Source: Actinomycetota bacterium (lineage in GTDB: Bacteria > Actinomycetota > Actinomycetes > Mycobacteriales > JACQDL01). From it: a stretch of DNA of 64,000 nt. The DNA lies in NCBI GenBank assembly GCA_016201065.1, contig JACQDL010000011.1, positions 13,772 through 77,771 on the forward strand, written 5' to 3'. Under the pieces are notes generated by a model, which was given only the letters and a program-made list of their open reading frames with translations, had not been told where the DNA came from and searched no databases. Numbering within the stretch: position 1 is the stretch's first letter; the number at the start of each line of letters is the position of its first letter. Position numbers and translations under genes: made by a program. Shown here piece after piece: positions 1,389 through 17,275 of the stretch.

Positions 1389-2744
1389 ATGACAACCAGC
1401 CGGCCCGGCGGCAACGACAGGCTCCGCCAGGCGATGCACGCGGCAGGCCTGTCGAACAAAGCCCTCGCACGGGCGGTACGACAGCTCGCCGCCCGGCACG
1501 GGGACCATCTGGCCACCGATCACACCACCGTCGCCCGCTGGTTGACCGGCACCAACCCACGCGAAAGCACCCTGGACTACATCCTTGAGGCCATCTCTGC
1601 GAGGCTGGGCACACCGCTGGACGCCGAGGACCTCGGCTTCCTCGTAGCCGAACGCGTCGCGGCCGACCTAGGGCTGCGGTACCTGCCGTCGCTGCACGAT
1701 TCGATCGGTGTGCTCGCGGAGCTCACCCGCCTGGACGCCACACAGCACCCCACCATCAGTGCCAGCACCTACTCAGCCGACGCGGTGCACGCCCTCTGCC
1801 TGGACTGGCTGTTCGGCGAGTCCACGAACGATCTCAACGAGAACCACAAGCCGGTTCGGGCTACGGACGTTGACGAACTGCGGATGATGACCGCGACGTT
1901 CGACCACCTCGACCGTCGGGGCGCCGGCGAAGAACACCGACAACTGGCGGTGCGCTACCTGCACGACATCGTGGTACCGAAACTGGGAAGGGCTGCCACC
2001 GACCCGGCTGGTCGCGACTTCCTCCAGGCGACCGCGATCCTGTGCGAACTCATCGGCTGGATGGCCTTCGACACCCTCCACCACGCGACCGCGCAACGCT
2101 ACTTCTCACAAGCCATCAGGTTCGCCGAGGCCGCCGGCGATCAGGGCTACGCGGCGTTCGCGGTGGCGAGCATGGCCGACCAGGCCCTTTTCGTCGGCCA
2201 ACCCACGCAGGCACTACGCCTCGCGCAGGTCGCTGGCGACCGAAGCGGACGCACCGGCCACCCAGTCACCACGACCGAGGCGCATGTGCTCCGGGCCCGC
2301 GCGTACGCCACGCTCGGCGAGGTCAAGTCCTGTTCAAGGGCGCTCACCCGTGCCGAGCGCACCTTCAACCAACTCGACGGCACCGACCACCCGACTTGGG
2401 CAGCCCACTGGACCGAGTACGTCCTGTCCAGCCACGCGGGCACCTGCTGGACCGATCTCGGGCAGGTCGACGAAGCCAGCCGGCAGATCGGGTTCGCGTG
2501 GCGGGCCGCTCAGCACCAACCCCGCCGCCTCGTCTACAACACGGTCCAACTCGGTCGTATCGCGTTACTGCGTCACGACGTGGAGGAAGCCTGTCACTAC
2601 CTCGGCCTCGCCGAGGAGAACAACAACGACCTCCTGTCCGAACGGTCCGCCTGGCACGTCACCCGGCTGCGCGACACGCTCACCACCGACCACGGCGGTC
2701 ACACCGCGGTGCGGCAACTCAGGGCCACGACCCCGCAGCCGTGA
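1389..2744 (+). CDS. HTH transcriptional regulator with C-terminal TPR-like helical repeat domain
   Basis: 451-aa ORF. N-terminal HTH (LRQAMHAAGLSNKALARAV...HTTVARWLTG). The C-terminal region is helical-repeat-like (YFSQAIRFAEAAGDQGYAAFAVASMADQALFVGQ..., LRARAYATLGEV...). The N-terminus resembles that of ORF 3792. Confidence 0.7.
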   Translation: MTTSRPGGNDRLRQAMHAAGLSNKALARAVRQLAARHGDHLATDHTTVARWLTGTNPRESTLDYILEAISARLGTPLDAEDLGFLVAERVAADLGLRYLPSLHDSIGVLAELTRLDATQHPTISASTYSADAVHALCLDWLFGESTNDLNENHKPVRATDVDELRMMTATFDHLDRRGAGEEHRQLAVRYLHDIVVPKLGRAATDPAGRDFLQATAILCELIGWMAFDTLHHATAQRYFSQAIRFAEAAGDQGYAAFAVASMADQALFVGQPTQALRLAQVAGDRSGRTGHPVTTTEAHVLRARAYATLGEVKSCSRALTRAERTFNQLDGTDHPTWAAHWTEYVLSSHAGTCWTDLGQVDEASRQIGFAWRAAQHQPRRLVYNTVQLGRIALLRHDVEEACHYLGLAEENNNDLLSERSAWHVTRLRDTLTTDHGGHTAVRQLRATTPQP

Positions 2745-2791
2745 ACAGGTGAGCCACCCGGGCACGCGGTGCGCCGTAGTACCGTGACCTG

Positions 2792-3328
2792 GTGAGCTTG
2801 GCCGAGGACCTGCTGGCCGACGGCGAGCCGGAGAAGGAACACCACGCAGGGATCGCCACCCGGCAACCCCGCAAGCGGGTCGCTGGCGGTGCCCTCATCC
2901 ACGACGGCTCCGGTCGGTTGCTGTTCGTGATCCCCAATTACAAGCCCGGCCTGGAGATCCCTGGTGGCATGGCCGAGGAGAACGAGTCACCAGCCGCCGC
3001 GTGCCGCAGAGAAATCCGTGAAGAACTCGGGCTTGAACTCGACATCGGCGAACTCCTCGTCGTCGACTGGCTCCCCGCCCACGGCGTCTGGCCCGACGGG
3101 CTCATGTTCCTCTTCAACGGCGGCGTGATCGACAGTGTTGCCGCCCCAGGTATCGCCGCGAGGGATCCCGAGCTCGACGGGACCGTCTTCATGCACCTCG
3201 CCGACGCGGCCCCCCGTCTGCGACCCTCCATGATGCGTCGCCTCACCACCGCACTCGACGCCCTCCGTGACGGACGTCCCCGCTACGCCGAATTCGGGCG
3301 GAGCGGCCTGACCCAGCCAACCGAGTGA
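2792..3328 (+). CDS. NUDIX hydrolase
   Basis: Nudix box GX5EX7REUXEEXGU seen as GGMAEENESPAAACRREIREELGL. 178 aa, GTG start. Confidence 0.85.
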   Translation: MSLAEDLLADGEPEKEHHAGIATRQPRKRVAGGALIHDGSGRLLFVIPNYKPGLEIPGGMAEENESPAAACRREIREELGLELDIGELLVVDWLPAHGVWPDGLMFLFNGGVIDSVAAPGIAARDPELDGTVFMHLADAAPRLRPSMMRRLTTALDALRDGRPRYAEFGRSGLTQPTE

Positions 3329-3791: not shown

Positions 3792-4267
3792 ATGAGCGGA
3801 CCGGTGTCGTATACCACCCGTTTGGCCACCCTTCTCGCCGGTCGACATCAGACCCGTGAAGAGGTCCTGGCGGATTTCCACGAGTGCGCCCGGCAACTCG
3901 CCGGGGCGGCGACCCTGTCGCTGCGGCAGTTGGATCGGTGGCTGGCCGGGAGGATGACCGGCCTGCCCCGACCCACCGCCTGCCGGGTGGCCGAGGCCAT
4001 GTGGGGCGAGCCGATTCAACACCTGCTCGCGCCCCCGGAGCCCGAACCGTCGATCCACCCGGCCCCCCGGGTGTTGGACCGTTCGCGGAGCGGCCTGCCC
4101 TCCGGGCTGCTGCCGTTGACCCCGAGCTGGTGCCGCGCTGGCACAAGCTCGGGGTGTTCGCCGTGTCGGAGAACCTGTTCGGGCCGCAGCACCCGACCAG
4201 CACCGTCATGCGGGAGCTGGCCGTCATCCGCATTGAGTCGACCGCGATGTGCAGGAACTCGTCATGA
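3792..4267 (+). pseudogene. Truncated/frameshifted HTH regulator remnant (paralog of the N-terminus of the 1389..2744 protein)
   Basis: Strong SD (gaggagggg) lies before ATG 3792. The first ~85 aa look like an HTH (LSLRQLDRWLAGRMTGLPRPTACRVAEAMWG). The frame then degrades, and protein-like sequence continues in the frame of ORF 3884..4267 (AVDPELVPRWHKLGVFAVSENLFGPQHPTSTVMRELAVIRIE). It ends convergently against the E1 gene. Confidence 0.35.
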
Positions 4268-5737
4268 CGTGGAGTGTCGGTTGCGCCGTGCGCGGACGTC
4301 TTGGATGAGTTTGGCGTCGGTTTGACAGGTGCAGTTGTGTCTTGCGTTTCTTTTCTGGACCATGCCTGGCTGCGGTCCGTACAGGGTATCGTATTCGATG
4401 TCTCGGGAGATTGATTCTGGATGGGTGTTGTGTCGGATCAGGGCGCCGACAACGAGGGCTGCAGCTTGTTGCGCGGCGAAGACGATCGATGGCCGGAACT
4501 GCCCGGGATCTGGTCGAGCGGTGAGATCAAGAGCGCGAGCCAAGCCGCACACGGGTCGCCCTAGGTGGGCAGAGAGCAACCGCCGGCTGTTGGGCGACAG
4601 TTCACGGAGGTCATCCTTGGTGAGGGGTAGGTCGCCTCGGGCAATCCGGTCGAGGCGAAGTCCGGTAGCCTGGGCGAGGAGTTGTTCCGCCGATTGTCCT
4701 TTGCTGGATGGCTGTTGCGGGTAGTAGCAGCGCAGGCATGGCCCTGCAAAGGTTGCCTCGGAAAGGCCCACGGTGGTGCCAACGTTTCCGCCGGTGCTGC
4801 CGTCCAGAACCAAGTTGGCGTGCAGTCGGGCGATCTCGTGTCGCGCGTGGATGCTGTCGACCGCCCCGAGGACGGTCCGAGGTGGGGGCTCGTTGCCATT
4901 GTCGACTAGATTGAGGTATTCCAGAGCTCTGATCGGGTGGCGCCGGACGTCTATCCCCGGTAGGTGCTGGACGAGAATGTCCACTTTCGGAAGTCGCTTG
5001 GCTGCGGCGGCGAGGTCGCCGAGACTGTAGGTCGCGACATTCGGTTCCTCGAAGGATTCGGGATCCACGACAGCGAGGGTCCCAGTCGCAGATAGTTCGC
5101 GAAGGATCAACGCGACGGCGGTGCCGATGGCGCCAGCTCCGATAAGAACATGATGATCGAGAATCGATATTTCCGCGGCGACTCCCGGTTCGGCGAGAGT
5201 GACGGGGCATAGGTCGATGCGGTCCCGTTTGACGTGCCGGTTGGGCGCGAGGTCGATGATCTCCTTGAATACCTCCGCGGCGAGGACGGCGGCGGTGTAG
5301 ACCGACCCCAGTCCGGTGCCGCGGTGAACGGTTGGGAAGGGGTGGCCGGCCCGGCGCAGTCGCACACCGTGGCCGTCGGGAACACCGCTGATGCCAGCGC
5401 CTAAGGGCGTGGTCCCGACGTGGACGTGTAGGTCGGTGCCGGTACTGCGCCCGAACTGGAGTGGGCGGTCAGGGTCGATGCCGGCGGCAAGTGCGGCAAG
5501 GTCGTCCAAGACCGCTCCACGAAGGTTGGAAGCGCGCGGATCGAGGCGCACGGTGATCGGGAGCCGGCGAAGGTTGCCTATCAGGACCTGCAGACATGAC
5601 AGCTGTCCTGGATCCGCAGTAACACAGACGGTCGTGGATTTCAATCGCTCCTGTACATTGGAGGGCCGGTAGGTGCCTTGTGTGGCCAGCCGTAGCGGGC
5701 GACTGTAGTCAGTGGGCACGTACACCGCCCGCGTCAA
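4262..5737 (-). CDS. E1-like ThiF/MoeB-family adenylyltransferase (BilD-like)
   Basis: Rossmann nucleotide loop HHVLIGAGAIGTAVA. ThiF-like core with cysteine pairs GPCLRC and CTC. ~490 aa with an extra N-terminal domain. Last gene of the overlapping Ubl-E2-JAB-E1 operon. The annotated start is TTG at 5737; alternative GTG starts are at 5725 and 5719. Confidence 0.85.
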   Translation of the reverse strand: MTRAVYVPTDYSRPLRLATQGTYRPSNVQERLKSTTVCVTADPGQLSCLQVLIGNLRRLPITVRLDPRASNLRGAVLDDLAALAAGIDPDRPLQFGRSTGTDLHVHVGTTPLGAGISGVPDGHGVRLRRAGHPFPTVHRGTGLGSVYTAAVLAAEVFKEIIDLAPNRHVKRDRIDLCPVTLAEPGVAAEISILDHHVLIGAGAIGTAVALILRELSATGTLAVVDPESFEEPNVATYSLGDLAAAAKRLPKVDILVQHLPGIDVRRHPIRALEYLNLVDNGNEPPPRTVLGAVDSIHARHEIARLHANLVLDGSTGGNVGTTVGLSEATFAGPCLRCYYPQQPSSKGQSAEQLLAQATGLRLDRIARGDLPLTKDDLRELSPNSRRLLSAHLGRPVCGLARALDLTARPDPGQFRPSIVFAAQQAAALVVGALIRHNTHPESISRDIEYDTLYGPQPGMVQKRNARHNCTCQTDAKLIQDVRARRNRHSTS

Positions 5738-6194
5738 CGGTCAGGACGGCGACCGGACCGTCTATCAGAGTTGCCGATGGTGACGGGGCCCAGTCGGATC
5801 CGGTGAACGCCCACCATCCCCAGGAGGCCGGGTCGCCTGGCGGGCTTGCGAAGTCCGGGACGACCGCGGCGAGGAATCCACGCATTCGGATGCATCCTCG
5901 CCGGTCGGTCTCAGACAAGAACGCGGTCCGGGCGTGTGAGTGGAGGTGGGCGCGGACTTGGAGCTGGTGTTCCTCGGCGTAGGTGAACAGTCGGTCCAAT
6001 ACGGGCATGGCGAGGTGGAACTGGTCACGGCGCCTAGTGATTCCGGCGGTGCCGGCGAGTGCGACGGCGGTGACCTGCAGACCGCCGGGAGCGGTCATGA
6101 GCAGTGCCCCGGTCTCCAGTCCTAGCTCGCCGTAGCAGCGGATGTGCTCGGCGATGGCCGCTGTCGCCCCGCGCGGCAGGTCGAGGCGGCTCAT
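5709..6194 (-). CDS. JAB/MPN (JAMM) metalloprotease, deubiquitinase-like (BilC-like)
   Basis: JAMM motif HxHx7Sx2D seen as HLHSHARTAFLSETD, with an upstream Glu (LGLETGALL). 161 aa. The ATG overlaps the E2 stop (ATGA at 6191-6194). Confidence 0.85.
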   Translation of the reverse strand: MSRLDLPRGATAAIAEHIRCYGELGLETGALLMTAPGGLQVTAVALAGTAGITRRRDQFHLAMPVLDRLFTYAEEHQLQVRAHLHSHARTAFLSETDRRGCIRMRGFLAAVVPDFASPPGDPASWGWWAFTGSDWAPSPSATLIDGPVAVLTVDAGGVRAH

Positions 6195-6625
6195 GCTGCG
6201 CGTCGTCCTCCGGCCCGGTGGATGTCAGCGTGGAGGTTCTCCACCACGAAGAGGAAGGGGTTGCCAGTAGTTCGCCATACGTGTGGGCCGGACCGCCACT
6301 CGGGGTGCAGCCCTTGACCTTCGGCGGTGAACGGCTTGCACACATCGGTGGGCGCCCGATAACCCGGCGCCGACGGCCACGCCGAGGTATCGGTGGTAGC
6401 ACCGCCCGCCTCGACTGCGAATAGAACCGAGGGTGGCAGGTCGGGATAGAGGTTCCAGGCGATCCGGGCAACGAACGACGCGTGGCCATCGGGTCCGGCG
6501 ATCATCACCCAGTACAACCCGTCGGGGTCGCTGTCTCTGAGCACCAACCGTCCGCCGGCCCCGGCCAGGAAGTCCGCGACCTGGGTGGCATCCCGGTTCA
6601 GGCGCAGCTGGCTCTCCAGATCCAT
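6191..6625 (-). CDS. Prokaryotic E2/UBC-like protein (BilB-like)
   Basis: 144 aa, located between the Ubl and JAB genes. Candidate catalytic Cys in APTDVCKPF, followed by HPEW. An SD-like AGGTGA lies 7 nt upstream of the ATG. Confidence 0.7.
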   Translation of the reverse strand: MDLESQLRLNRDATQVADFLAGAGGRLVLRDSDPDGLYWVMIAGPDGHASFVARIAWNLYPDLPPSVLFAVEAGGATTDTSAWPSAPGYRAPTDVCKPFTAEGQGLHPEWRSGPHVWRTTGNPFLFVVENLHADIHRAGGRRAA

Positions 6626-6632
6626 GCCTACG

Positions 6633-6923
6633 TCACCTGGATCCAGAGATGGTCTCGGTCCGCAGCGCCAGTTTCACTTGGTGGCCGTGGCCGTGACCAC
6701 CTCTCAGGTCATCCAGAAATGTCCCGGCATCGACCTCGCTGCCGTCATGGAGCAGGTAGTACCGGGTCGTACCGTCGGCCGCAATCCCGAAGGCGGCCAG
6801 GGCGTCCGACAACACCTGTCCAACGGTCGTGGCCTTCGGGTACTCGTGCTCGTAGGGCCTGGCGGCTGCGGCGAAGGTGACGACCACCTCGACGTGGTGC
6901 TCTTCGTGGGCCTGCAGGGACAT
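6633..6923 (-). CDS. Ubiquitin-like beta-grasp protein (BilA-like / multiubiquitin-type, single domain)
   Basis: 96 aa, first gene of the operon, with strong SD ggaaggag. The pattern HVEVVVT...TTVGQVLSDALAAFGI...YYLLHDGSEVD...QVKLAL is typical of prokaryotic Ubl domains. The C-terminus is ...TETISGSR, with Gly two residues before the end. Confidence 0.65.
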   Translation of the reverse strand: MSLQAHEEHHVEVVVTFAAAARPYEHEYPKATTVGQVLSDALAAFGIAADGTTRYYLLHDGSEVDAGTFLDDLRGGHGHGHQVKLALRTETISGSR

Positions 6924-6940
6924 ATGACTCCTTCCGAGGG

Positions 6941-7031
6941 GCCGACAGCGTCGGCACTACTGCATCAGCGAAGTTGCAACGACACTTTGGCACGACGATC
7001 TGTTGCACGCAAGCGGCGCCGCACGTACTGT
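6941..7031. promoter_or_regulatory. Divergent promoter/operator region between the Ubl operon and the XRE gene
   Basis: Palindrome GCCGAC-agc-GTCGGC at 6941-6955. GTTGCAAC palindrome at 6973-6980. GTTGCACGCAA (TTGC-N2-GCAA) at 7002-7012. On the plus strand, -35 TTGCAC (7003-7008), a 17-nt spacer and -10 TACTGT (7026-7031) end 6 nt before ATG 7038, which suggests a leaderless transcript. Confidence 0.35.
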
Positions 7032-7037
7032 GCGTTC

Positions 7038-7562
7038 ATGCCGGTGGAGGGCACCGACGGGACGTCAGCAGACGACCGCGATGACTGGGTCGGGGAGGTG
7101 GAGCGCCTCGACATCGGTGCGCTCGGGCAGATGCTGCGTGAGCGCCGGGCGGGGCTTTCTATCCGGCAGGCCGCTCGGGACGCCGGGGTGAGCTTCAGCA
7201 CCTTCGCCCGGGTCGAAGGCGGCGCGCAGCCAGATCTGGCGACGTTCGCGAGACTGTGCGCCTGGCTGGGGGTGTCCCCGGCGAGGTTCTTCACCCCAGT
7301 CGTGGAGCGTGAGACATCTCCATTGGAGGACGCCATCACGCACCTGACGGGCGACCCCCGGTTGTCTGCGGTTACGGCGGGCAGGATCGCAGGAGTGTTG
7401 CGGGACATGTACGAGGCGCTCGCCCGTGACGCCGCACCACAGCCGATCATCGCCTGTCACCTCCGGGCTGCACCCCTCCTCCGCCCCGGGGTCGCCCCGC
7501 GCTTGGCTGCTCTCCTCACAGATCTGCATGACGAACTCCAGCGGCAGGTCGAGGCGCGGTAG
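7038..7562 (+). CDS. XRE-family HTH transcriptional repressor (CapH-like)
   Basis: Internal ATG at 7038 of ORF 6585..7562. HTH seen as LGQMLRERRAGLSIRQAARDAGVSFSTFARVEGG. Lies immediately upstream of an ImmA/IrrE peptidase gene (3-nt gap). Confidence 0.8.
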   Translation: MPVEGTDGTSADDRDDWVGEVERLDIGALGQMLRERRAGLSIRQAARDAGVSFSTFARVEGGAQPDLATFARLCAWLGVSPARFFTPVVERETSPLEDAITHLTGDPRLSAVTAGRIAGVLRDMYEALARDAAPQPIIACHLRAAPLLRPGVAPRLAALLTDLHDELQRQVEAR

Positions 7563-7564
7563 CT

Positions 7565-8122
7565 GTGACCCTCCCCCGAGGCTTCAAGGCCACTGCTGAG
7601 CGTGAAGCGACTCGTATCCGCCACGAAATGGGCGTATCAGAGGGTGACCCGGTCAATATCCTGTCCGTTGCGGAGCACGTCCAGGCCATAGTGGTGGGCG
7701 CCGACCGGCTGGTCGCCATCGAACGACTCGAAGAACTAGAGCGTCTTCAGGCATACGCTTTCTCGGCCGCAACATTCGACGTCAAGGGCAAGTCATACAT
7801 CGTCACCAATCCGCTCAGGTCTCGAGGGCGCCTAGCCAGCGACGTCGCCCACGAGATCGCGCACCTGCTCCTGCAACACGACCTCACTGAGATCCGCGAG
7901 ATCGAGGGCGTCCCATTTCGTACGTGCCGGCCAGATGAGGAAGAGCAGGCCACAGTGTTCGGCGGAACCCTCTTGTTGCCACGTCCCTTGCTCCTCAATG
8001 CCGCCAGGCGCGGCCTGGGTCCCGAACAGATCGCCGTCGCCTATGGTGTCACCACCGAAATGGCCCGATTTCGGTATACCACCACCGGCGTAGCCAAACA
8101 GGTTCTCCGCCGACCGCGGTAA
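7565..8122 (+). CDS. ImmA/IrrE-family zinc metallopeptidase (CapP-like)
   Basis: HExxH motif in VAHEIAHLLLQHDL. 185 aa. Paired with the upstream XRE gene. Confidence 0.85.
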   Translation: MTLPRGFKATAEREATRIRHEMGVSEGDPVNILSVAEHVQAIVVGADRLVAIERLEELERLQAYAFSAATFDVKGKSYIVTNPLRSRGRLASDVAHEIAHLLLQHDLTEIREIEGVPFRTCRPDEEEQATVFGGTLLLPRPLLLNAARRGLGPEQIAVAYGVTTEMARFRYTTTGVAKQVLRRPR

Positions 8123-8141
8123 TTACCCCACATGCTGCAAG

Positions 8142-9523
8142 CACGGGATCGGCAAGTTGGCGTTTTAGGGCGCGAAGATGCTTGTTATGGTCGCATGTCT
8201 TGTTTGACGTAGGGACGGCTTGCTGGTAGCGGTTTCTCTGATTCATGGGGATGGCCTCTAGCCCGGCATGATCACGGGTACCGAATCCTGATCTGACCGG
8301 AACAAGAGGCCATCCATGTCAGTGTCGCACGCCCGCGAGTCCGCCATGACCAACACCGACGGGGAGGCACCTGGCCTGCTGGATGTGCTCGCGCAGGTCC
8401 GGGACCCGCGTAAGAGGCGCGGGCGCAGGTTCGGCCTGGTGTTCCTGCTCGCGGTGGCGGTGGCGTGCGTGCTGGCCGGGGCGAAGAGCTTCCGGGAGAT
8501 CGGCGACCATGCCGCCGACCTGCCGCAGGACGTACTGGCCCGGCTCGATGGGAGGCCGCATCCGCTGCTGCGGCGGATCACCGTGCCCAGCGAGACACGG
8601 ATCCGCACCCTGGTCCACGCCATCGGCGCCGATGCCCTCGATGACCTGGTCGGGGGCTGGCTGCGGGCCCTGGTGGAGGCCGGCCGGTTGGACGGGCTGC
8701 TGAGGGCGATCGCGATCGACGGGAAGTGGCTGCGTGGTGTCGCCGACGGGCAGGTGAAGCTGTTCGCCGCGATGCTGCACGAGGAGAAGGTGATCATCGC
8801 CCAGCACCGCATCCCGGACGAGACGACCGAGACCACCCAGGTCAAGGAGTTGCTGGACGCCGTGGACCTGGACAACGCGGTGGTCACCGCCGACGCGGCC
8901 CACACCCAGCGCGAGACCGCCCAGTACATCGCGGGCAGCAAGGACGACGGGAACCGCGGTTGGCGACTACTTCCTGTTCCTCAAGGGAAACCAGCCGACC
9001 CTGCAGGCCGCGGTCTTCGACGCCATCCAACACGGCGGCCCCCGCGACCCGGACCACACGGAACTGGACCACGGCCATGGTCGGATCATCCGCCGCTCCA
9101 TCTGGGTCACCGACGCCGGGGACCTGGACTTCCCGCACGTGTCCCAGGTGGCGCGGATCCGCCGCGACCGCTACGACCTCGACGGCACCCTGATCAGCAA
9201 GGAAATCGTGCACGCCGTCACCAGCCTGAAAGAAGACCGCGCCACGGCCGTGGACCTCGCAAGGATCGCCCGCGGCCAGTGGGGCATCGAATCGGCGCAC
9301 TGGCTACGCGACACCACCTACGCCGAAGACGCCAATACCGGATATGCCGGGAATGGTCCGCAGGTCATGGCCACCTTCAGGAACATCGCGGTCAGCCTGC
9401 TCCACATCGCCGGCGTCACCGAGATCACCCGCACCCTCCAGGCCATCGGACGCGACCGAACCCGCCTACTCAACTACCTACCGATATGAGACCAGTATCA
9501 CAAACGACTTTACCGATCCCGTG
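8142..9523 (+). mobile_element. ISAs1-family insertion sequence (1382 bp) with 10-bp target site duplication
   Basis: Terminal inverted repeats are CACGGGATCGG(C/T)AA at 8142 and its reverse complement ending at 9523. Flanking direct repeats ATGCTGCAAG lie at 8132-8141 and 9524-9533. It encodes an ISAs1/H-repeat-type transposase. Confidence 0.85.
8316..9489 (+). pseudogene. ISAs1-family transposase, frameshifted
   Basis: The N-terminal part is in the frame of ORF 8316 (LLDVLAQVRDPRKRRGRRFGLVFLLAVAVACVLAGAKSF...TADAAHTQRETAQYIAG). The continuation (GDYFLFLKGNQPTLQAAVFDAIQ...WGIESAHWLRDTTYAEDA) is in the frame of ORF 9139..9489. A single-nt frame change lies near 8960. Confidence 0.8.
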
Positions 9524-9584
9524 ATGCTGCAAGCACCTCAACCTCACCGGCCCAACCGTCGCGACCTGTAGTGCCGGCACCGTC

Positions 9585-9672: not shown

Positions 9673-11235
9673 TCATACTTGCCGGAGTCGTTCGATCTGC
9701 CGTTCGAGGTTGATCAGATGGGTGGAGTGCGGGCCGTAGGTGATGCGGAACGCGGGCCTGAGTTCCTCCAGTACGGCGCGGGCCTCGGCGGTGCGTTGCT
9801 CCGTCGCCAGCATCTGCGCGATGACGAACCTGCTCTCAAGCACCCGTTCGGCGTTGTCCGGGTCATCGGCCTCAACGTTGCTGGTGAAGTAACGAAGATG
9901 GGCGAGCGCGGGCGCGGGTGCCCCGATTTCGGCGTAGGCGTGCCCCGCGTGGTAGGCGCACTCCAGCACCCTCGGGTGCGACGCCACCAGACCCCCAGCA
10001 CGGTACCGTTTACCAGCCCCGGCTAGGAGGGCGGCAGCGCGCCGGTACTCGCCGACGTAGAACAGGGCCAGCCCGAGCAGTTGCTGGAGTTCCAGTTCGA
10101 AGAACGGGTTGGCTGAGGAGCGTCGCAGTCCCGCTTCGAGCAGTCGCACCGCGCCGGTGTTGTCGCCACTGTCCAGCAGTGCGGCGACCGAAACGCGGAT
10201 CTGCTCGAACTCGGCATCGGTCAACGGTGCGCCACCGCCAGCGGGTTGGCGCGGTGGAGGTGGGGCGAGCAATGGAGTTCGGAACGGCCGGGTCGGGTCC
10301 CGGTTCGCACCACCCACACCCGCCCCTGGGGTGTGGGTGAAGGTCACCAGCGTGCGGTAGACCTGCTCCGCCGACGGGCGGCTGTCGGGGTCCTTGGCGA
10401 GCATCGTGTGGAGGAGCTGCTCCACCGGTTCGGGAATGTCCGCCCGGGTGGCGCGCGCCGACGGGGCCGGGGACTGGATGTGGTGGGCGCGCAGCGAGGC
10501 GTTCGGTGTGTCCAGGAACGGTGGGTCACCAGTGAGCAACTCGAACATCAGGCAGCCGAGGGAGTAGATGTCTGAGGCGGCGGTGACGGCCCGCCCCAGG
10601 TGTTGCTCGGGCGACATGTAGGTCGGGGTGCCCACGGTGCGGTCCACTTGGGTCAGCCGCGGTAGCGCGCCCGCGCCGCGCAGGATCGCGATGCCGAAGT
10701 CGAGGACCTTCACCACGCCGCCGTCGATGACCATGATGTTGGCGGGTTTGATGTCGCGGTGGACGATGTCGACCCGGTGGACGTCTGCCAGCACGGCGGC
10801 GATCTGGGCGCCGATCGCGGCGGCCCAGGAGATCGGGGGCGGTGCGGCCTCGTAGTCGGTCCGGTCGAGGAGCCCTTCGAGGGTGGAGCCTCGCAGCAGT
10901 TGCATGACCAGCCAGATCCGGGTGGAGCCGTCGGGTTGCTCGTCAATGCCGGTGTCGTAGACCGCCGGGGTACCGGGGTGTTCCAACTGTGCCGCGGTTC
11001 GGATCTCCCGGAGGAAGCGGGCACGGTCGCGTTGTTGCGCGTCGAGTAGTTCCTGGGCCTCGGGTCCATCCCCGGTGCGGGCGTGGGTGGGTTGGCGGAG
11101 CATCTTGATGGCGATGGCTCGGTCGAGGCGCTCGTCGTGGCCGTGGTAGACCTCGCTCATCCCGCCGCGGCCGAGCAGCGCGTCGACACGGTAGCGGCCG
11201 CTGAGCAGGTGTTCCGGCTCGACCTCTGGCGTCAT
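9673..11235 (-). CDS. Hanks-type Ser/Thr protein kinase with C-terminal TPR-like domain
   Basis: Kinase motifs AIKML (VAIK), HRDIKPANIMV, DFGIA and GTPTYMSPEQ. A Pro-rich linker precedes helical repeats (LLGLALFYVGEYRRAAALL..., YHAGHAYAEIG...). The ATG overlaps the hsdR stop (ATGA at 11232-11235). Confidence 0.9.
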   Translation of the reverse strand: MTPEVEPEHLLSGRYRVDALLGRGGMSEVYHGHDERLDRAIAIKMLRQPTHARTGDGPEAQELLDAQQRDRARFLREIRTAAQLEHPGTPAVYDTGIDEQPDGSTRIWLVMQLLRGSTLEGLLDRTDYEAAPPPISWAAAIGAQIAAVLADVHRVDIVHRDIKPANIMVIDGGVVKVLDFGIAILRGAGALPRLTQVDRTVGTPTYMSPEQHLGRAVTAASDIYSLGCLMFELLTGDPPFLDTPNASLRAHHIQSPAPSARATRADIPEPVEQLLHTMLAKDPDSRPSAEQVYRTLVTFTHTPGAGVGGANRDPTRPFRTPLLAPPPPRQPAGGGAPLTDAEFEQIRVSVAALLDSGDNTGAVRLLEAGLRRSSANPFFELELQQLLGLALFYVGEYRRAAALLAGAGKRYRAGGLVASHPRVLECAYHAGHAYAEIGAPAPALAHLRYFTSNVEADDPDNAERVLESRFVIAQMLATEQRTAEARAVLEELRPAFRITYGPHSTHLINLERQIERLRQV

Positions 11236-14200
11236 GGGGTGCCTGTCTGTCTGGTCATCTCCTCGCGGAGCTTGGCCAACGCTTCATCGCGCGCCGGTTC
11301 GGTGATGATGCGGTAGGCGCGACGGCGGGCGGCCTCCTTGACGGTCGCCCGGAACTCTGGGTTGTCGAAGTAGTTCTTGGTGAAGGTGGTGTTGCGGTCG
11401 GCGTTCTCGGCGACGAGGTCGTCCAGGCGATCGTCTGCGACCTGCCCGAATCGGTCTTCGTCGTTCATCAACGCGATCTGCTGCATGCCGGTGTCTTGGA
11501 CCAGGCCGGTGATCTGCTGGTAGATGAGGATCTCATCGGAGGTGCCCAGGCCGAGGCCGAACCGGTCGTTGAGTTCGGCGATCACCTCCGCCAGGGGCGC
11601 CATCTCGGGTTCGTGGCGGCCACCGCCGTCGGCGGCGTGGCCCCGCACGTCACGGTCACCGACGGCGGTCAGAGACACATCGTGCTTGCCGGTGAACTCC
11701 AACCGGAAGTGGGTCAGGTCGGCGTCGCCGACGTCGACCGCGGTCGAGGGGCGCCCCGGCAGGCGGACCAGCAGGATCCGGCCGTACTGGTAGAGCCGCT
11801 CCAGGTCGGGATCACCCCAGTCGATGATCTGTGCGAGCAGGCTGTAGGCACGCAGATAGGTCTGCAGGGCGCTGCGGAAGCCCTCACGCTCGTCATCGGT
11901 GTCCAGTGCCCGGAACCGGTCGACCGCGGGGGTGAGGTACTGGTGCAGCCGGGCGTGGAGCTTCTTCTCCGCCGTGGCCGGCAGCCGGTCGGGTCCCGCT
12001 TCACCGAGGACCCGCAGGAACGCCTGCATTTCCGAGGCCGCCAGCAGCCCGTACTCCATGACTTCGCGTTGCTTGTCGTAGAGCAGGTTGGGGTCGGCGG
12101 GCTCGGTGATCGTCGTTTCGAACCAGTCCTTGAACGCCTCCTGGATGGTGGCGGCGTCGTTGACGAAGTCCAGGATCCGTACGTCGTCCTGGGCTTTCAA
12201 CGGGTGGATCCGGTTGAGGCGCGACAGGGTCTGCACCGCGGCGACACCTGTCAGGGGCTTGTCGACGTACATGCCACACAGCAGCGGCTGGTCGAACCCG
12301 GTCTGGTACTTCTCCGCCACGACCAGCAACCGGTACTCCTCCTGGTCGCGGGCAGGAGCCTGCGGGTCGTCGGCCTTGGTGTAGGCGAACCGGTCGGGTA
12401 GTTGCGTCTCCCCGAACCCGTTCAGCTGCGCCTCGGTGTACTCCACCCCGGTGGACTCCTCCGTCAGCGACCCCGAGAACGCCACCAGCACCCCTAGGTG
12501 GTGGCCGCGTTCGTGGACGTGCCGGCGGATCGCCTGGTACAGGTCCAGGGCGTCCTGCCGGCTGCCGGTGACGACCATCGCCTTCGCCCGCCCACCCAGC
12601 CGGGGCTCGATGTCCTCCTGGAAGTCCTCGACGATCAGCTTGGCCTTCTGCGCGAGGGAGTTGGGGTGCCGTAGCGCCATGCGCACCAGCTTGGCTTTCG
12701 CCTTGGCCTCATCGACGTCGGGGTTGCTGATCGCCGAATCAAGCTGGTCGAGGGCGGCATTGCGCAGCCGCCACTTGGTGTCGTAGGTGAGGTAGTTGGC
12801 CAGCACGTCGAGGATGTAGCCCTCCTCGATCGCCTGGCGCATCGAGTACACGTGAAACGGCACGTACATGCCTGGTGTCGCATCATGCGGGTTAACCCGG
12901 TCCGGGTCCCAGGTGCCGAACAGCTTCAGGGTTGGTGACTTCGGGGTGGCGGTGAACGCGAAGTAGGACAGGTTCGGTTGCCGGCCCCGCACCCGGGTGA
13001 GGTAGGTGGCCTCGTCCTCCTCCTCATCCGCTCGGGCAGCGTTGACGCCGAGGGCCTGCTTGAGGCGGGTCGCGGCGTCCCCACCCTGGGAGGTGTGTGC
13101 CTCGTCGATGATCACGGCGTAGCGGCGACCACCCAAACCCGCGCCGGCGATCTTGTCCAGGATGTAGGGGTACTTCTGCAGCGTGCTGACTACGATCTTG
13201 GATGTGGCGTCCTCCAACGCGGCGGCGAGCTGGGTCGAGTCATCGTCGATCGTCTTGACCACACCGGGTTCGTGGTCGAACTGGAATATCGTCCGCTGCA
13301 ACTGCCGGTCCAGCGCGGTCCGGTCGGTGATCACCACCGTCTTGTGGAACACCGGGTGATTGTCGTCGTCGAAGAGGCTCGACAACCGGTGGGCCAGCCA
13401 GGCGATCGTGTTGGACTTACCCGAACCTGCCGAGTGTTGGATCAGGTAGTTGCTGCCCGCGCCGTGCGTGCGGGCGTGCGCGACCATCTTCTGCACGGCG
13501 TCCCACTGGTGGTATCGGGGGAAGATCCGGGGCGTGGTGTGCGGGCTGACCCATACCCCCTTCTTCTCCGCTTCCTGGACGTGCACGAACCGTTGTAGGA
13601 TCTCCAACCAGTTGTCCCGCTGCCAGATCTGCTCCCACAGGTACCCCACCGCGTAGCTGCCGGGCTCCGCCGGCGGGTTCCCGGATCCCCCACTCACCCC
13701 GGGGCCGCGCGAACCAATGTTGAATGGCAGGAACTGCGTGTCCTCACCCGCAAGACGGGTCGCCACGTATGCACGGTCCGGGTCAGCCGCGAAGTGAACC
13801 ACCGCACGCTTGGCGAACAACAGCTCGTTCGGATCTCGGGAACGGTACTGCGCGATCGCATGATTCACGTTTGTTCCAGTATTGGGATTCTTTAGCTCCG
13901 CGGTCGCCACCGGAATACCATTCACGAACAGGACAACATCAACCGACTTCTTGCGATCCCGGGTACTGAAGTGCACCTGCCGCGCCACGGTCAGGATGTT
14001 CGCGCCGTATTCACGCAACGCATCCGCAGCGAGTGTGTGACCGGGGCGGAAGTAGGCCAGATCAACCAGGATCCCCCGATCCTTCACACCGTAGCGGAGC
14101 ACATCGAGCACACCACGAGCATCCACCTCGGACGCCACACGCTGCGCGAACCGTCCCCGCGCCTCGGCCGCACTCCCGTAGAGCTCGACCAGCCTGTCCC

Positions 14201-14360
14201 AGCTCTCTCGCTGGCTCCCCCCGATGAACCGGAACAGCTCAGTGATATCCAAACCCAGATCCGCCTGGTACGTACCCTGGGCCATCACCCAGCCGCGTGC
14301 AAGCAGCTCGTACTCTGCACGTCCCTCAAAGCCACGCTCCCAATGCGCACCGGGACTCAT
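11232..14360 (-). CDS. hsdR: Type I restriction enzyme R subunit
   Basis: 1042 aa. Walker A HSAGSGKSNTIAW, DEAH box VIIDEAHTSQ, and the N-terminal nuclease region typical of HsdR. The ATG overlaps the stop of the reconstructed hsdS. Confidence 0.95.
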   Translation of the reverse strand: MSPGAHWERGFEGRAEYELLARGWVMAQGTYQADLGLDITELFRFIGGSQRESWDRLVELYGSAAEARGRFAQRVASEVDARGVLDVLRYGVKDRGILVDLAYFRPGHTLAADALREYGANILTVARQVHFSTRDRKKSVDVVLFVNGIPVATAELKNPNTGTNVNHAIAQYRSRDPNELLFAKRAVVHFAADPDRAYVATRLAGEDTQFLPFNIGSRGPGVSGGSGNPPAEPGSYAVGYLWEQIWQRDNWLEILQRFVHVQEAEKKGVWVSPHTTPRIFPRYHQWDAVQKMVAHARTHGAGSNYLIQHSAGSGKSNTIAWLAHRLSSLFDDDNHPVFHKTVVITDRTALDRQLQRTIFQFDHEPGVVKTIDDDSTQLAAALEDATSKIVVSTLQKYPYILDKIAGAGLGGRRYAVIIDEAHTSQGGDAATRLKQALGVNAARADEEEDEATYLTRVRGRQPNLSYFAFTATPKSPTLKLFGTWDPDRVNPHDATPGMYVPFHVYSMRQAIEEGYILDVLANYLTYDTKWRLRNAALDQLDSAISNPDVDEAKAKAKLVRMALRHPNSLAQKAKLIVEDFQEDIEPRLGGRAKAMVVTGSRQDALDLYQAIRRHVHERGHHLGVLVAFSGSLTEESTGVEYTEAQLNGFGETQLPDRFAYTKADDPQAPARDQEEYRLLVVAEKYQTGFDQPLLCGMYVDKPLTGVAAVQTLSRLNRIHPLKAQDDVRILDFVNDAATIQEAFKDWFETTITEPADPNLLYDKQREVMEYGLLAASEMQAFLRVLGEAGPDRLPATAEKKLHARLHQYLTPAVDRFRALDTDDEREGFRSALQTYLRAYSLLAQIIDWGDPDLERLYQYGRILLVRLPGRPSTAVDVGDADLTHFRLEFTGKHDVSLTAVGDRDVRGHAADGGGRHEPEMAPLAEVIAELNDRFGLGLGTSDEILIYQQITGLVQDTGMQQIALMNDEDRFGQVADDRLDDLVAENADRNTTFTKNYFDNPEFRATVKEAARRRAYRIITEPARDEALAKLREEMTRQTGTP

Positions 14361-14552
14361 GCTACCCCTCGCCTCGCCGTAGTTGCGTCGAGCTGACCGG
14401 TCACGGCGGCAGTTATAACTGCCTGACGGCGTTCAGACAGAAGCTCTCGGAGACGGCCAACTTCATCGCGCAGCGGTCTCGTTACGCGAATCGCATTCCC
14501 GATTTCGCGCTGCTCCATCGGATGAACGCGGGGAACCGCTATGCTTCCGAAA

Positions 14553-16255: not shown

Positions 16256-17275
16256 TTCCGAAACGCTCCCAATTTCGAAAGTCTATCGCCCGCTCACGAG
16301 CACTGCCACCGAAGAGACTTAGATACCCATCCAGAGCAAGGATACGAAGCAGTCGCCCATAGAATGCGGCATCGCCACTGTCTCGCGGAAGACACACGTG
16401 ATAGACTGGACTGCAGATGCCGCTAGATTCCGAGTCGCCGATAGAGCCAGCGAATCCATCTAATCCATGTACCACTACATCCCCGACCTCGACCCCCTGA
16501 ACATACGGATCAGACTTGGCCGATTCGGTGAATCCGTGCGTCCGCCGCTCGTCGCGCGCTACCACTTGACCGTCACGAAATTCTGACACAATCGAATCTT
16601 GGGTAGCTCGCCGCTGCAACTTCACAATTAGTCGCTTCAGCGGGACGAGATCAGACCCGTCAACGCTGGCAATCTTACTTCGACCGATCACCGTTCGCAC
16701 ACGCGCATCGACACGATCATTGTTTAGATCTACCAGTCGCCGATTGGCCTCTAGCAATCGGTCTATCGCGTCAACCTTGGCGTCAAGGAAGTCGACGATG
16801 CGCTGTTGCTCATCTAGTGGTGGGTGGAGCAGCGGGAGCAAACGAAGTGAGTCCCAAGGGACATCGAACTGAGACGGCGGCATGAACTTCGATATTCTCG
16901 TCAGTTCGGACAAATAAGGTCTCGAAAGAAGCAGATAATTCAGATATCGAGGAGACCAGCCAGAGTTCGGGCGACAGACGTAGTATGCGGGACTAACAAT
17001 TCCGTCTCGGGGAGAAACGCCGAGACCTCCCTGCCAAGTCCGTAGCTTGTTGAACACTACATCGCCGACCCGGACATATTGATACTTGCCGAGGTCCTCG
17101 CCGAGGTTATTGTGGTTGTCCGACCGAGATTCCCTGGGAATCACTCCAGCATTCAGAAATACGGACAGTGGTTCAGCTTCTGGCTTGCCAGTTTCTTGTA
17201 TCCTCCGAGTGGCCACGCAGAGTCGCATCCACCGCCAGCCATCGGGTAGATCAATTTCCTGCAGCACTCCTTGAC

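What the first reader, a model, noticed from the sequence alone, without database searches (positions are those of the whole stretch)
6924..8122. Divergent XRE repressor + ImmA/IrrE protease (CapH/CapP-like) module apparently controlling the Ubl operon, with GTTGCA operator-like repeats and a leaderless promoter
**Seen in the sequence**
- The 114-bp region between the Ubl start (6923) and the XRE start (7038) carries three elements:
  - a perfect palindrome GTTGCAAC (6973-6980);
  - a related TTGC-N2-GCAA site (7002-7012);
  - a GCCGAC-agc-GTCGGC palindrome next to the Ubl SD.
- The GTTGCA elements coincide with plausible -35 boxes for both divergent promoters.
- On the plus strand, TTGCAC-17 nt-TACTGT ends 6 nt before the ATG. 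This suggests a leaderless XRE mRNA.
- The XRE gene is followed after 3 nt by an HExxH (HEIAHLLLQH) ImmA/IrrE peptidase.

**Established knowledge**
CapH/CapP pairs de-repress CBASS and other defence operons when the protease cleaves the repressor after DNA damage.

**Inference**
The same logic is applied here to a ubiquitin-like conjugation system. I do not know this combination to be characterised.
Basis: partly seen in the sequence, partly recalled or inferred. Interest (0 to 1): 0.7.

Follow-up and report, generated by a model that had tools for sequence, protein, structure and literature searches.

The report
Repressor-protease switch for Bil defence operon
A repressor gene and a protease gene sit back-to-back with a bacterial ubiquitin-like (Bil-type) anti-phage operon and most likely keep it switched off until the protease cuts the repressor; this regulator–operon pairing has already been reported, so this is a well-resolved new example, not a new kind of system.

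Summary
The two "GTTGCA" elements are real, but they are fragments of a larger conserved 18-bp operator, TGnnnCAnnnAAGnnnCA. It occurs twice on the repressor-gene strand, at 6961-6978 and 7001-7018.

**The regulator pair**
- The same XRE/ImmA pair was found in 71 actinobacterial species.
- The protease gene follows the repressor gene wherever the contig allows.
- The operator pair is kept whatever lies upstream: Bil-like Ubl-E2-JAB-E1 (22 loci), Bub-like multi-ubiquitin operons (about 23) or CBASS (about 15).
- Sister Bil operons that carry other regulators lack the motif.
- By context and homology this is therefore a CapH/CapP-type module. Its repressor mRNA is leaderless: TANNNT lies 6-7 nt before the start codon in all 22 Bil-linked orthologues.

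**Not new**
- Chambers et al. reported divergent CapH/CapP on 15% of Type II Bil operons.
- Lau et al. saw the pair next to ubiquitin-like operons in 2022.

**What differs here**
- The protease is short (185 aa). It lacks the GAF domain that forms half of the ssDNA-sensing groove in characterised CapP and IrrE.
- The repressor is long (174 aa) and has an invariant ACHLRA...RPG motif.

Repressor binding, its cleavage and the inducing signal are all inferred. Interest is modest.

The parts
6961..6978 (+). Distal 18-bp operator, TGCATCAGCGAAGTTGCA.
   Evidence: It matches the conserved motif TGnnnCAnnnAAGnnnCA exactly and is the only such match in the window. It is the top weight-matrix hit in 64 kb. 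Homologous sites occur in almost all 71 orthologous loci.
7001..7018 (+). Proximal 18-bp operator, TGTTGCACGCAAGCGGCG.
   Evidence: It is the second-best weight-matrix hit in the window. The first 14 bases, TGTTGCACGCAAGC, are identical in L001, and L002 differs only at the last of them. It lies 40 bp from the distal site; 43-44 bp is usual.
7003..7031 (+). Candidate repressor promoter: TTGCAC, a 17-nt spacer, then TACTGT. The transcription start would be at or next to the A of the ATG at 7038, giving a leaderless mRNA.
   Evidence: Sequence read. TANNNT lies 6-7 nt before the start codon in all 22 Bil-linked orthologues and in 35 of 70 loci overall, with 13 different hexamers that keep T, A and the final T. 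The predicted starts agree with the database N-termini of P0006, P0015 and P0021. No transcription start site has been measured.
6984..7012 (-). Candidate Bil-operon promoter on the minus strand: -35 TTGCGT (7012 to 7007), a 17-nt spacer, -10 CAAAGT (6989 to 6984). The start would be near 6977, so the distal operator would cover about -1 to +17.
   Evidence: The same layout (TTGCGT or TTGACT, 17-18 nt, NANNNT) occurs in 23 of 53 distinct upstream regions, all but two of them in the clade with leaderless repressor genes. A promoter with its -35 in the distal operator fits 0 of 53. This is inference.
6941..6955 (.). Palindrome GCCGAC-AGC-GTCGGC. It would form a hairpin in the Bil 5'UTR if the start is near 6977.
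   Evidence: Present. Hairpins of different sequence at the same place occur only in L001 and L002. The UTR fold has z = 0.70. No function is established.
6928..6935 (-). Shine-Dalgarno sequence of the Ubl gene, GGAAGGAG.
   Evidence: Read from the sequence.
7038..7562 (+). CapH-like XRE repressor, 174 aa. The HTH spans residues 26-84. A helical C-terminal domain follows, with the invariant ACHLRA...RPG..RL at residues 139-156.
   Evidence: Pfam HTH_31 at 1.6e-10. 425 homologues of 160-200 aa. Alignment A1. AlphaFold2 model with pLDDT 78. The best PDB fold match is DdrO 6jq1, and the CapH N-terminal domain 7t5u ranks 28th.
7565..8122 (+). CapP/ImmA-like Zn metallopeptidase, 185 aa. It has H96-E97-xx-H100, E127 and an invariant C121 in a beta-hairpin insertion. 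It has no GAF domain.
   Evidence: Pfam Peptidase_M78 at 3e-13. PADLOC capP at 9e-11, covering only profile positions 5-153 of 242. All 120 listed homologues are 168-195 aa. AlphaFold2 model with pLDDT 88. Best PDB fold matches are PprI/IrrE 8sln, 3dte and 3dti, aligned over about 179 of 240 residues.
6633..6923 (-). BilA-like ubiquitin-like protein, 96 aa, ending ...ISG-SR.
   Evidence: PADLOC BilA at 4e-8. The Gly is invariant, and most orthologues end exactly at it.
6191..6625 (-). BilB-like E2, 144 aa. C96, E102 and H107 are invariant (CEHH-like).
   Evidence: Alignments. There is no Pfam, PADLOC or PDB sequence hit.
5709..6194 (-). BilC-like JAB deubiquitinase, 161 aa.
   Evidence: PADLOC BilC at 6.6e-10; Pfam Prok-JAB at 2.4e-4.
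4262..5737 (-). BilD-like E1, 491 aa.
   Evidence: Pfam ThiF at 2.8e-9. The family profile hits E. aridi E1(BilD) 8tyz at 5.9e-4 over residues 20-273. Invariant CxxC (334, 337), CxC (469, 471) and C397.

Best explanation
The region 6924-8122 is a CapH/CapP-type derepression switch. It belongs to the ImmR/ImmA and DdrO/IrrE superfamily and controls the divergent Bil-like operon (Ubl-E2-JAB-E1, 6923 down to 4262).

**Proposed mechanism**
1. The 174-aa XRE protein binds as a dimer or higher oligomer to two 18-bp operators, 6961-6978 and 7001-7018, whose starts are 40 bp apart.
2. The proximal operator covers two back-to-back -35 boxes: TTGCAC on the plus strand and TTGCGT on the minus strand.
3. 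The distal operator covers the likely start of the Bil mRNA.
4. Occupancy therefore represses both the Bil operon and the regulator's own leaderless transcript.
5. On an inducing signal, presumed to be DNA damage or phage infection, the co-transcribed 185-aa HExxH peptidase cuts the repressor in its C-terminal oligomerisation domain. My guess for the site is at or near the invariant L142|R143.
6. The repressor leaves the DNA and the ubiquitin-like conjugation system is expressed.

**Shown here**
- The identities of the genes.
- Strict pairing of the two regulator genes.
- Their divergent position next to defence cargo.
- Conservation and specificity of the operator.
- Conservation of the -10 box at leaderless distance from the start codon.

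**Inferred**
- Binding of the repressor to the operators.
- Both transcription start sites.
- Cleavage of the repressor and the cleavage site.
- The nature of the signal.
For: **The genes**
- Domain hits: HTH_31, Peptidase_M78, PADLOC capP at 9e-11, and BilA, BilC and BilD.
- Structure models: the peptidase matches PprI/IrrE, and the repressor's best match is DdrO.

**Conserved context in 71 orthologous loci, one genome per species**
- The peptidase gene follows the repressor gene in all 69 loci with room for it.
- Divergent upstream cargo is Bil-like in 22 loci, multi-ubiquitin plus JAB-E1 in about 16, Multi_ubiq plus DUF6791-ThiF plus DUF6527 in 7, and CBASS CD-NTase in about 15.

**The operator**
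- At weight-matrix score 12 or more there are 124 same-strand hits in 11.3 kb of upstream regions. There are 13 hits in 1.15 Mb elsewhere, both strands counted.
- The invariant positions T1, G2, C6 and G13, C17, A18 are dyad-symmetric, as expected for an HTH dimer.
- Double dissociation: loci with the same regulator but different cargo keep the motif. Sister Bil operons with a different HTH/M78 pair (L081, L084) or a CapK/CapS-like pair (L082, L083, L085) have no such site in the intergenic region.

**Promoters**
- The leaderless -10 box is conserved in all 22 Bil-linked loci.
- The candidate Bil promoter layout is conserved in 23 of 53 distinct regions.

**Literature**
- CapH represses and CapP cleaves it on ssDNA or DNA damage (Lau et al. 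2022).
- CapH/CapP lie divergently upstream of 15% of Type II Bil operons (PMC10557695).
Against: - No experiment bears on this locus or on any member of this subfamily.
- The peptidase lacks the GAF domain, which forms one wall of the ssDNA groove in CapP and IrrE (PMC13228613). The published activation mechanism cannot be transferred as it stands.
- The PADLOC capH match is marginal, at 6.8e-3.
- No sequence-level match to solved CapH or CapP was found.
- The promoters are weak by consensus scan, and the Bil promoter assignment rests only on comparison.
- The window's operators diverge more from the consensus than most. The proximal site scores 13.6, close to the shuffle maximum.
Confidence: 0.75

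Rival explanations
1. The pair is the immunity module (ImmR/ImmA type) of a prophage or integrative element. It controls excision or lytic genes, and the Bil operon is only a neighbour.
For: - The peptidase is short and lacks a GAF domain, like B. subtilis ImmA.
- The island carries IS remnants next to the pair.
- Some sister loci have integrases within a few kb.
Against: - No integrase, excisionase or phage gene adjoins the pair in the window.
- The conserved divergent neighbour in at least 60 of 71 species is a defence operon, not mobility genes.
- No homologue was found in 50,697 phage records or 72,556 plasmid records.
Confidence: 0.06
2. The pair autoregulates only itself or acts on distant targets, and the Bil operon is constitutive or controlled by something else.
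For: - The Bil promoter has not been mapped.
- The proximal operator clearly overlaps the repressor's own promoter.
- Lau et al. found that capP is dispensable for phage protection by CBASS.
Against: - The distal operator lies only 37 bp from the Ubl start codon.
- The cargo changes between species, but the operator pair always faces it.
- In sister Bil operons the same slot holds CapK/CapS-like regulators.
- No other strong operator site exists in the 64-kb window.
Confidence: 0.1
3. The pair is an XRE/COG2856 toxin-antitoxin-like or stand-alone defence module. The peptidase would be an effector acting on other proteins, not a dedicated anti-repressor.
For: XRE-COG2856 pairs have been proposed as toxin-antitoxin-like modules (from my own knowledge, not tested here). 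The repressor's large, conserved C-terminal domain could be a sensor or an inhibitor.
Against: - Conserved operators flank a variable cargo, which fits a transcription switch.
- The closest structural relatives, IrrE/PprI and DdrO, form a protease-repressor pair.
Confidence: 0.05

Closest known systems
CapH/CapP (Lau et al. 2022; E. coli MS115-1 and Thauera sp. K11 CBASS regulators)
   Same: - Two genes: an XRE HTH repressor followed by an HExxH M78 peptidase.
- They lie divergently upstream of a defence operon and share its promoter region.
- Orthologues of this very pair flank CBASS, Bub-like and Bil-like operons.
- The PADLOC capP model matches.
- The peptidase has an insertion with an invariant Cys between HExxH and the third zinc ligand.
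   Different: - The peptidase is 185 aa and ends after the helical linker, with no GAF domain. The peptidase-GAF groove that binds ssDNA therefore cannot exist.
- The Cys lies 21 residues after the second His. In CapP it lies 13 after.
- The repressor is 174 aa against about 107 aa. It has a roughly 25-aa variable N-terminus and an 80-aa four-helix C-terminal domain carrying ACHLRA...RPG.
- There are two 18-bp operators. For E. coli CapH one 22-bp site is described.
- The repressor mRNA is leaderless.
CapH/CapP-associated Type II BilABCD operons (Chambers et al. 2023/2024, PMC10557695)
   Same: - Gene order Ubl-E2-DUB-E1, with capH/capP upstream in the opposite direction.
- A single-domain Ubl of about 96-98 aa with a Gly that needs trimming.
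- An E2 with a C-x5-E...H motif.
- An E1 with CxxC plus CxC zinc-site cysteines and a Cys in an insertion.
   Different: - The sequences are very distant. Only the E1 family profile reaches E. aridi BilD, at 5.9e-4. The E2 matches no model.
- The hosts are Actinomycetota, not mostly Rhizobiaceae.
- The spacing of the E2 histidines differs.
ImmR/ImmA of ICEBs1 and phage phi105 (Bose et al. 2008, 2011)
   Same: A short M78 peptidase without a GAF domain, encoded directly after the XRE repressor that it cleaves. The repressor is autoregulated.
   Different: - Here the controlled genes are a defence operon, not excision or transfer genes.
- There is no mobile-element context.
- Activation through RecA or RapI is unknown here.
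DdrO/IrrE (PprI) of Deinococcus
   Same: Best structural matches for both proteins. The logic is the same: the protease cuts the repressor's dimerisation domain. DdrO is cut at a Leu|Arg bond (from my own knowledge), which resembles the invariant L142-R143 here.
   Different: - IrrE has a GAF domain and is encoded apart from ddrO.
- It controls a chromosomal repair regulon through the 17-bp RDRM palindrome.

Membership tests
CapH/CapP | Two genes upstream of a defence operon and divergent from it, sharing its promoter region | tested here: met
   114-bp shared intergenic region. The same layout occurs in the orthologous loci.
CapH/CapP | Association of the same regulator family with CBASS | tested here: met
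   About 15 orthologous loci have a CD-NTase as the first divergent gene, with PADLOC cyclase matches at 7e-161 and 2e-157.
CapH/CapP | CapH: an N-terminal XRE HTH plus a C-terminal oligomerisation domain | tested here: inconclusive
   The HTH is confirmed. A helical C-terminal domain is predicted and is invariant in parts. Oligomerisation cannot be tested with a single-chain model.
CapH/CapP | CapP: an HExxH zinc metallopeptidase domain (Pfam PF06114) | tested here: met
   PF06114 at 3e-13. H96, E97, H100 and E127 are invariant.
CapH/CapP | CapP: a central HTH-like linker domain | tested here: met
   Helices at 140-182 are modelled with high confidence and aligned with IrrE/PprI over about 179 residues.
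CapH/CapP | CapP: a C-terminal GAF domain that forms the ssDNA groove | tested here: not met
   The protein ends at residue 185. All 120 listed homologues are 168-195 aa. The PADLOC capP match covers only profile positions 5-153 of 242.
CapH/CapP | Cysteine-switch loop (present in about a third of CapP proteins) | tested here: inconclusive
   Invariant C121 lies at the end of a lower-confidence beta-hairpin insertion (109-120) and is followed by D124-E125. The Cys-zinc distance could not be measured.
CapH/CapP | ssDNA- or DNA-damage-stimulated cleavage of the repressor | not testable with these tools
   Needs biochemistry.
ImmR/ImmA (mobile-element immunity) | Controls excision or transfer genes of a prophage or ICE, and is encoded within that element | tested here: not met
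   The neighbours are Bil, IS remnants, a kinase and a type I R-M system. No phage or plasmid homologues were found.
BilABCD (Type II-like) | Gene order Ubl-E2-JAB-E1 | tested here: met
   and the 22 syntenic loci.
BilABCD (Type II-like) | E2 with the CEHH motif (E. aridi C138, E144, H146, H151) | tested here: inconclusive
   C96, E102 (Cys+6, as in E. aridi) and H107 are invariant. H115 is present in 15 of 17 sequences. The His spacing differs.
BilABCD (Type II-like) | E1 with an inactive and an active adenylation domain, a four-Cys zinc site and a catalytic Cys in an insertion | tested here: met
   The profile hits 8tyz E1(BilD) collinearly over residues 20-273. CxxC (334, 337), CxC (469, 471) and C397 are invariant.
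BilABCD (Type II-like) | Ubl with a reactive C-terminal Gly, exposed by the DUB where extended | tested here: met
   G94 is followed by SR. Most orthologues end at the Gly.
BilABCD (Type II-like) | Conjugation activity and anti-phage protection | not testable with these tools
   Needs experiments.

The most novel reading that the evidence does not exclude
This actinobacterial CapP subfamily has no GAF domain, so it cannot form the peptidase-GAF groove that binds ssDNA in CapP and IrrE. It may therefore sense infection or damage in another way. Possibilities are a RecA-type partner as for ImmA, a zinc- or redox-controlled Cys121 switch, or the repressor's enlarged C-terminal domain acting as the sensor. 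If so, Bil, Bub and CBASS induction across Actinomycetota would run on a mechanistically distinct trigger.
Probability: 0.35. Interest if true: 0.55.

Novelty: new member of a known kind. Interest (0 to 1): 0.3.

Why it matters
It adds no new principle. Divergent CapH/CapP pairs on Bil, Bub and CBASS operons are already published.

It does provide a concrete, testable regulatory map for a large actinobacterial subfamily that nobody has studied experimentally:
- exact operator sequences with their invariant bases;
- two predicted transcription start sites;
- a predicted cleavage motif;
- the observation that the sensor protease lacks the domain thought to hold the signal.

The last point could guide work on how Streptomyces and its relatives induce ubiquitin-like and CBASS defences.

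Tried and rejected
1. **E. coli-type promoter and terminator scan of 6700-8400.** It found nothing, so the promoter calls rest on TANNNT conservation only.
2. **A Bil promoter with its -35 in the distal operator or in GTTGCAAC.** No distinct upstream region (0 of 53) has an NANNNT box at 16-19 nt. Rejected in favour of a -35 inside the proximal operator.
3. **The hairpin at 6941-6955 as a conserved RNA element.** Analogous hairpins occur only in L001 and L002. The Streptomyces and Kitasatospora loci have none. The fold has z = 0.70. No function is assigned.
4. **Sequence searches of solved structures.** The peptidase, E1 and E2 as single sequences, and the E2 profile, gave nothing useful. Only the E1 profile reached BilD.
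5. **Phage and plasmid collections.** No homologue of the peptidase was found.
6. **My first GC3-based gene caller.** It missed most island genes. I replaced it with a GC3-minus-GC2 caller plus tblastn with class representatives.
8. **Failed look-ups.** Two of the E1-context look-ups returned no record.
Full report
**Observation.**
- GTTGCAAC lies at 6973-6980.
- GTTGCACGCAA lies at 7002-7012.
- GCCGAC-AGC-GTCGGC lies at 6941-6955.
- TTGCAC (7003-7008), 17 nt, then TACTGT (7026-7031), 6 nt before the ATG at 7038.
- The intergenic region is 114 bp.
- The XRE ORF is 174 aa (7038-7562).
- The HExxH ORF is 185 aa (7565-8122). It starts 2 nt after the XRE stop, not 3.

Taken alone the short palindromes are weak evidence. 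GTTGCAAC occurs once against 0.43 expected. An E. coli-type promoter scan finds nothing.

**Genes.**
- The plus-strand pair is an HTH_31/HTH_3 protein and a Peptidase_M78 (ImmA/IrrE) protein. PADLOC matches capP at 9e-11 and capH only weakly, at 7e-3.
- The minus-strand operon is Ubl (96 aa; PADLOC BilA 4e-8), an E2-like protein with no model match, a JAB protein (BilC 7e-10) and a ThiF-type E1 (BilD 2e-4).
- Alignment of orthologues shows Bil Type II-like hallmarks:
  - E2 has invariant C96, E102 (Cys+6, as in E. aridi BilB C138/E144) and H107.
  - E1 has CxxC (334, 337), CxC (469, 471) and C397. This parallels the zinc site and catalytic Cys of E. aridi BilD.
  - Ubl has an invariant Gly that is C-terminal in most orthologues. 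Here it is followed by Ser-Arg, so trimming by the JAB enzyme is implied.
- The E1 family profile reaches PDB 8tyz E1(BilD) at 5.9e-4, collinearly over residues 20-273. Single-sequence searches reach nothing.
- This is a distant actinobacterial branch of Bil.

**Related loci.**
- The repressor has hundreds of homologues of 160-200 aa in Actinomycetota.
- The window itself matches a metagenome-assembled "Actinobacteria bacterium" contig of 80 kb.
- A scan of one genome per species gave 71 orthologous loci.
- The peptidase gene follows the repressor gene in all 69 loci with room for it.

The divergent upstream cargo varies:

| Cargo | Loci |
|---|---|
| Bil-like Ubl-E2-JAB-E1 | 22 |
| Multi-ubiquitin + small protein + JAB-E1 fusion (6E/Bub-like) | about 16 |
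| Multi_ubiq + DUF6791-ThiF + DUF6527 (Bub-like) | 7 |
| CBASS CD-NTase, with E2/JAB, a Cap2-like E1-E2, or a small protein that looks membrane-spanning by eye | about 15 |
| Unidentified or truncated | 11 |

PADLOC cyclase matches for the CBASS loci are 7e-161 and 2e-157. The regulator is thus a portable cassette that includes CBASS among its cargo, which is the operational definition of CapH/CapP.

**Operator.**
- Phylogenetic footprinting of the upstream regions shows a conserved 18-bp motif, consensus TGTWKCAGCAAAGCGTCA. Its invariant skeleton is TGnnnCAnnnAAGnnnCA.
- The outer invariant positions (T1, G2, C6 and G13, C17, A18) are dyad-symmetric, as expected for an HTH dimer. The asymmetric core keeps a fixed orientation.
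- The motif occurs as two direct copies on the repressor strand, usually 43-44 bp apart.
- At score 12 or more there are 124 same-strand hits in 11.3 kb of upstream regions. There are 13 hits in 1.15 Mb elsewhere.
- In the window the copies are TGCATCAGCGAAGTTGCA (6961-6978) and TGTTGCACGCAAGCGGCG (7001-7018).
- With a matrix trained only on loci carrying other cargo, these two sites are the top two hits in 64 kb (20.1 and 13.6; shuffle maximum 12.0 ± 2.7).
The TTGC-N2-GCAA is the middle of the proximal copy.
- The motif tracks the regulator, not the cargo. Sister Bil operons that carry a different HTH/M78 pair (about 30% identity; L081, L084) or a CapK/CapS-like pair (L082, L083, L085) have no such site in their intergenic regions.

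**Promoters.**
- A TANNNT box lies 6 nt (occasionally 7-8) before the repressor's start codon in all 22 Bil-linked loci and in 35 of 70 loci overall. The inner bases vary: TAATGT, TACGAT, TAGAAT, TAAGGT, TACGCT and others.
- The implied start codons agree with database N-termini. A leaderless repressor mRNA is therefore well supported for this clade, though no start site has been mapped.
- For the Bil operon the best candidate is on the minus strand: -35 TTGCGT (7012 to 7007, inside the proximal operator), 17 nt, -10 CAAAGT (6989 to 6984).
- The same layout (TTGCGT or TTGACT, 17-18 nt, NANNNT) is found in 23 of 53 distinct regions. A promoter anchored in the distal operator fits none of the 53.
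- This places both -35 boxes back-to-back in the proximal operator. It places the distal operator at about -1 to +17 of the Bil mRNA, ahead of a UTR of about 54 nt.
- That UTR contains the GCCGAC hairpin and the Shine-Dalgarno (SD) sequence GGAAGGAG.
- The hairpin has counterparts only in L001 and L002 and is not thermodynamically unusual.

**Proteins.**
- The repressor model (pLDDT 78) has the HTH at residues 26-84 and four further helices.
- The invariant ACHLRA (139-144) sits at the end of the only low-confidence internal segment.
- Its best PDB fold match is DdrO, the substrate of IrrE, and the match is weak (E 1.7e-3). The CapH N-terminal domain ranks 28th.
- The peptidase model (pLDDT 88, pTM 0.85) aligns with PprI/IrrE (8sln, 3dte, 3dti; query-normalised TM-score up to 0.60) over the peptidase and helical linker domains. 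It ends there.
- The whole peptidase family is about 185 aa.
- Invariant residues are H96, E97, H100, E127 (the second His + 27, as in CapP) and C121. C121 lies at the tip of a beta-hairpin insertion of lower confidence and is followed by D124-E125. This resembles the CapP cysteine-switch loop but with different spacing, and it is not verified.

**Literature.**
- Lau et al. 2022 defined CapH/CapP. CapH binds a site upstream of the predicted -35 site of the CBASS promoter. CapP cleaves CapH at F82|R83 when ssDNA is present.
- They already listed ubiquitin-like 6a and 6e operons among the cargo.
- Chambers et al. found capH/capP divergently upstream of 25 of 162 Type II BilABCD operons.
- 31% of Bub operons have CapH+CapP.
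- A 2026 preprint places ssDNA in the groove between the peptidase and GAF domains of CapP.
- CapK/CapS is a third regulator type, also seen on Bil operons.
- The combination is therefore known from genome surveys. It has not been tested experimentally on a Bil operon.

**Verdict.** This is a CapH/CapP-type switch on a distant Bil-like operon: a new member of a known kind.
- Binding, cleavage, the cleavage site and the signal are all inferred.
- The distinctive feature is the peptidase without a GAF domain. It leaves open a different activation mechanism, which I rate at about one in three.

Noticed in passing
window 8258-9524: Directly downstream of the peptidase gene lies a broken transposase gene (DDE_Tnp_1_assoc plus DDE_Tnp_1). 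The reading frame degenerates after about residue 206, and the C-terminal part continues in another frame (ORF 9139-9489). This IS remnant marks the edge of the regulator cassette.
   Followed up: partly
window 9673-19252: A defence-island context.
- A type I restriction R subunit lies at 11232-14360 (minus strand).
- Its stop overlaps by 4 nt the start of a Ser/Thr protein kinase gene (9673-11235), so the kinase appears to be co-transcribed with hsdR.
- hsdM lies at 17276-19252.
- A frameshifted IS66-family transposase (14584-16177) sits between them.
   Followed up: partly
L082 2270-3166 and 1654-2220; L083 1229-2113 and 637-1215; L085 1229-2143 and 697-1281: Sister Bil operons of the same E1 clade (Janibacter melonis, whose E1 NCBI labels as plasmid-borne; Oryzobacter telluris; a JGI metagenome) carry a different pair in the divergent upstream slot. 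It is a roughly 300-aa protein plus a roughly 190-aa DUF4325/HTH_24 protein. This resembles the CapK/CapS kinase-repressor pair described in 2026. Regulators have evidently been swapped on otherwise similar operons.
   Followed up: partly
L081 2159-3107; L084 1214-2184: Two further sister Bil operons have an HTH/M78 pair from a different subfamily. The HTH is about 121-123 aa as called and the peptidase is 191-200 aa. In L081 both proteins are about 30% identical to the window's pair. These loci lack the 18-bp motif, which implies a different operator.
   Followed up: partly
window 7452-7505 (repressor residues 139-156): The motif ACHLRA-x4-RPG-x3-RL is invariant in all 28 aligned repressors and lies next to the only low-confidence internal segment of the model. 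It is a candidate protease recognition or cleavage site, by analogy with Leu|Arg in DdrO and Phe|Arg in CapH.
   Followed up: partly
window 1389-3328: Upstream of the Bil operon lie a 451-aa HTH_31 + TPR protein (1389-2744) and a NUDIX hydrolase (2792-3328) on the plus strand. Their relation to the island is unknown.
   Followed up: no
window 31460-31481 and 51288-51309: Weak matches to the operator matrix (scores 11.9 and 10.0). They are at the level of the shuffle maximum and are probably chance.
   Followed up: no
window 4262-5737: The database copy of the E1 protein (P0241) is only 415 aa. Orthologue alignment supports the longer 491-aa reading, which includes the N-terminal inactive adenylation-like region.
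   Followed up: partly
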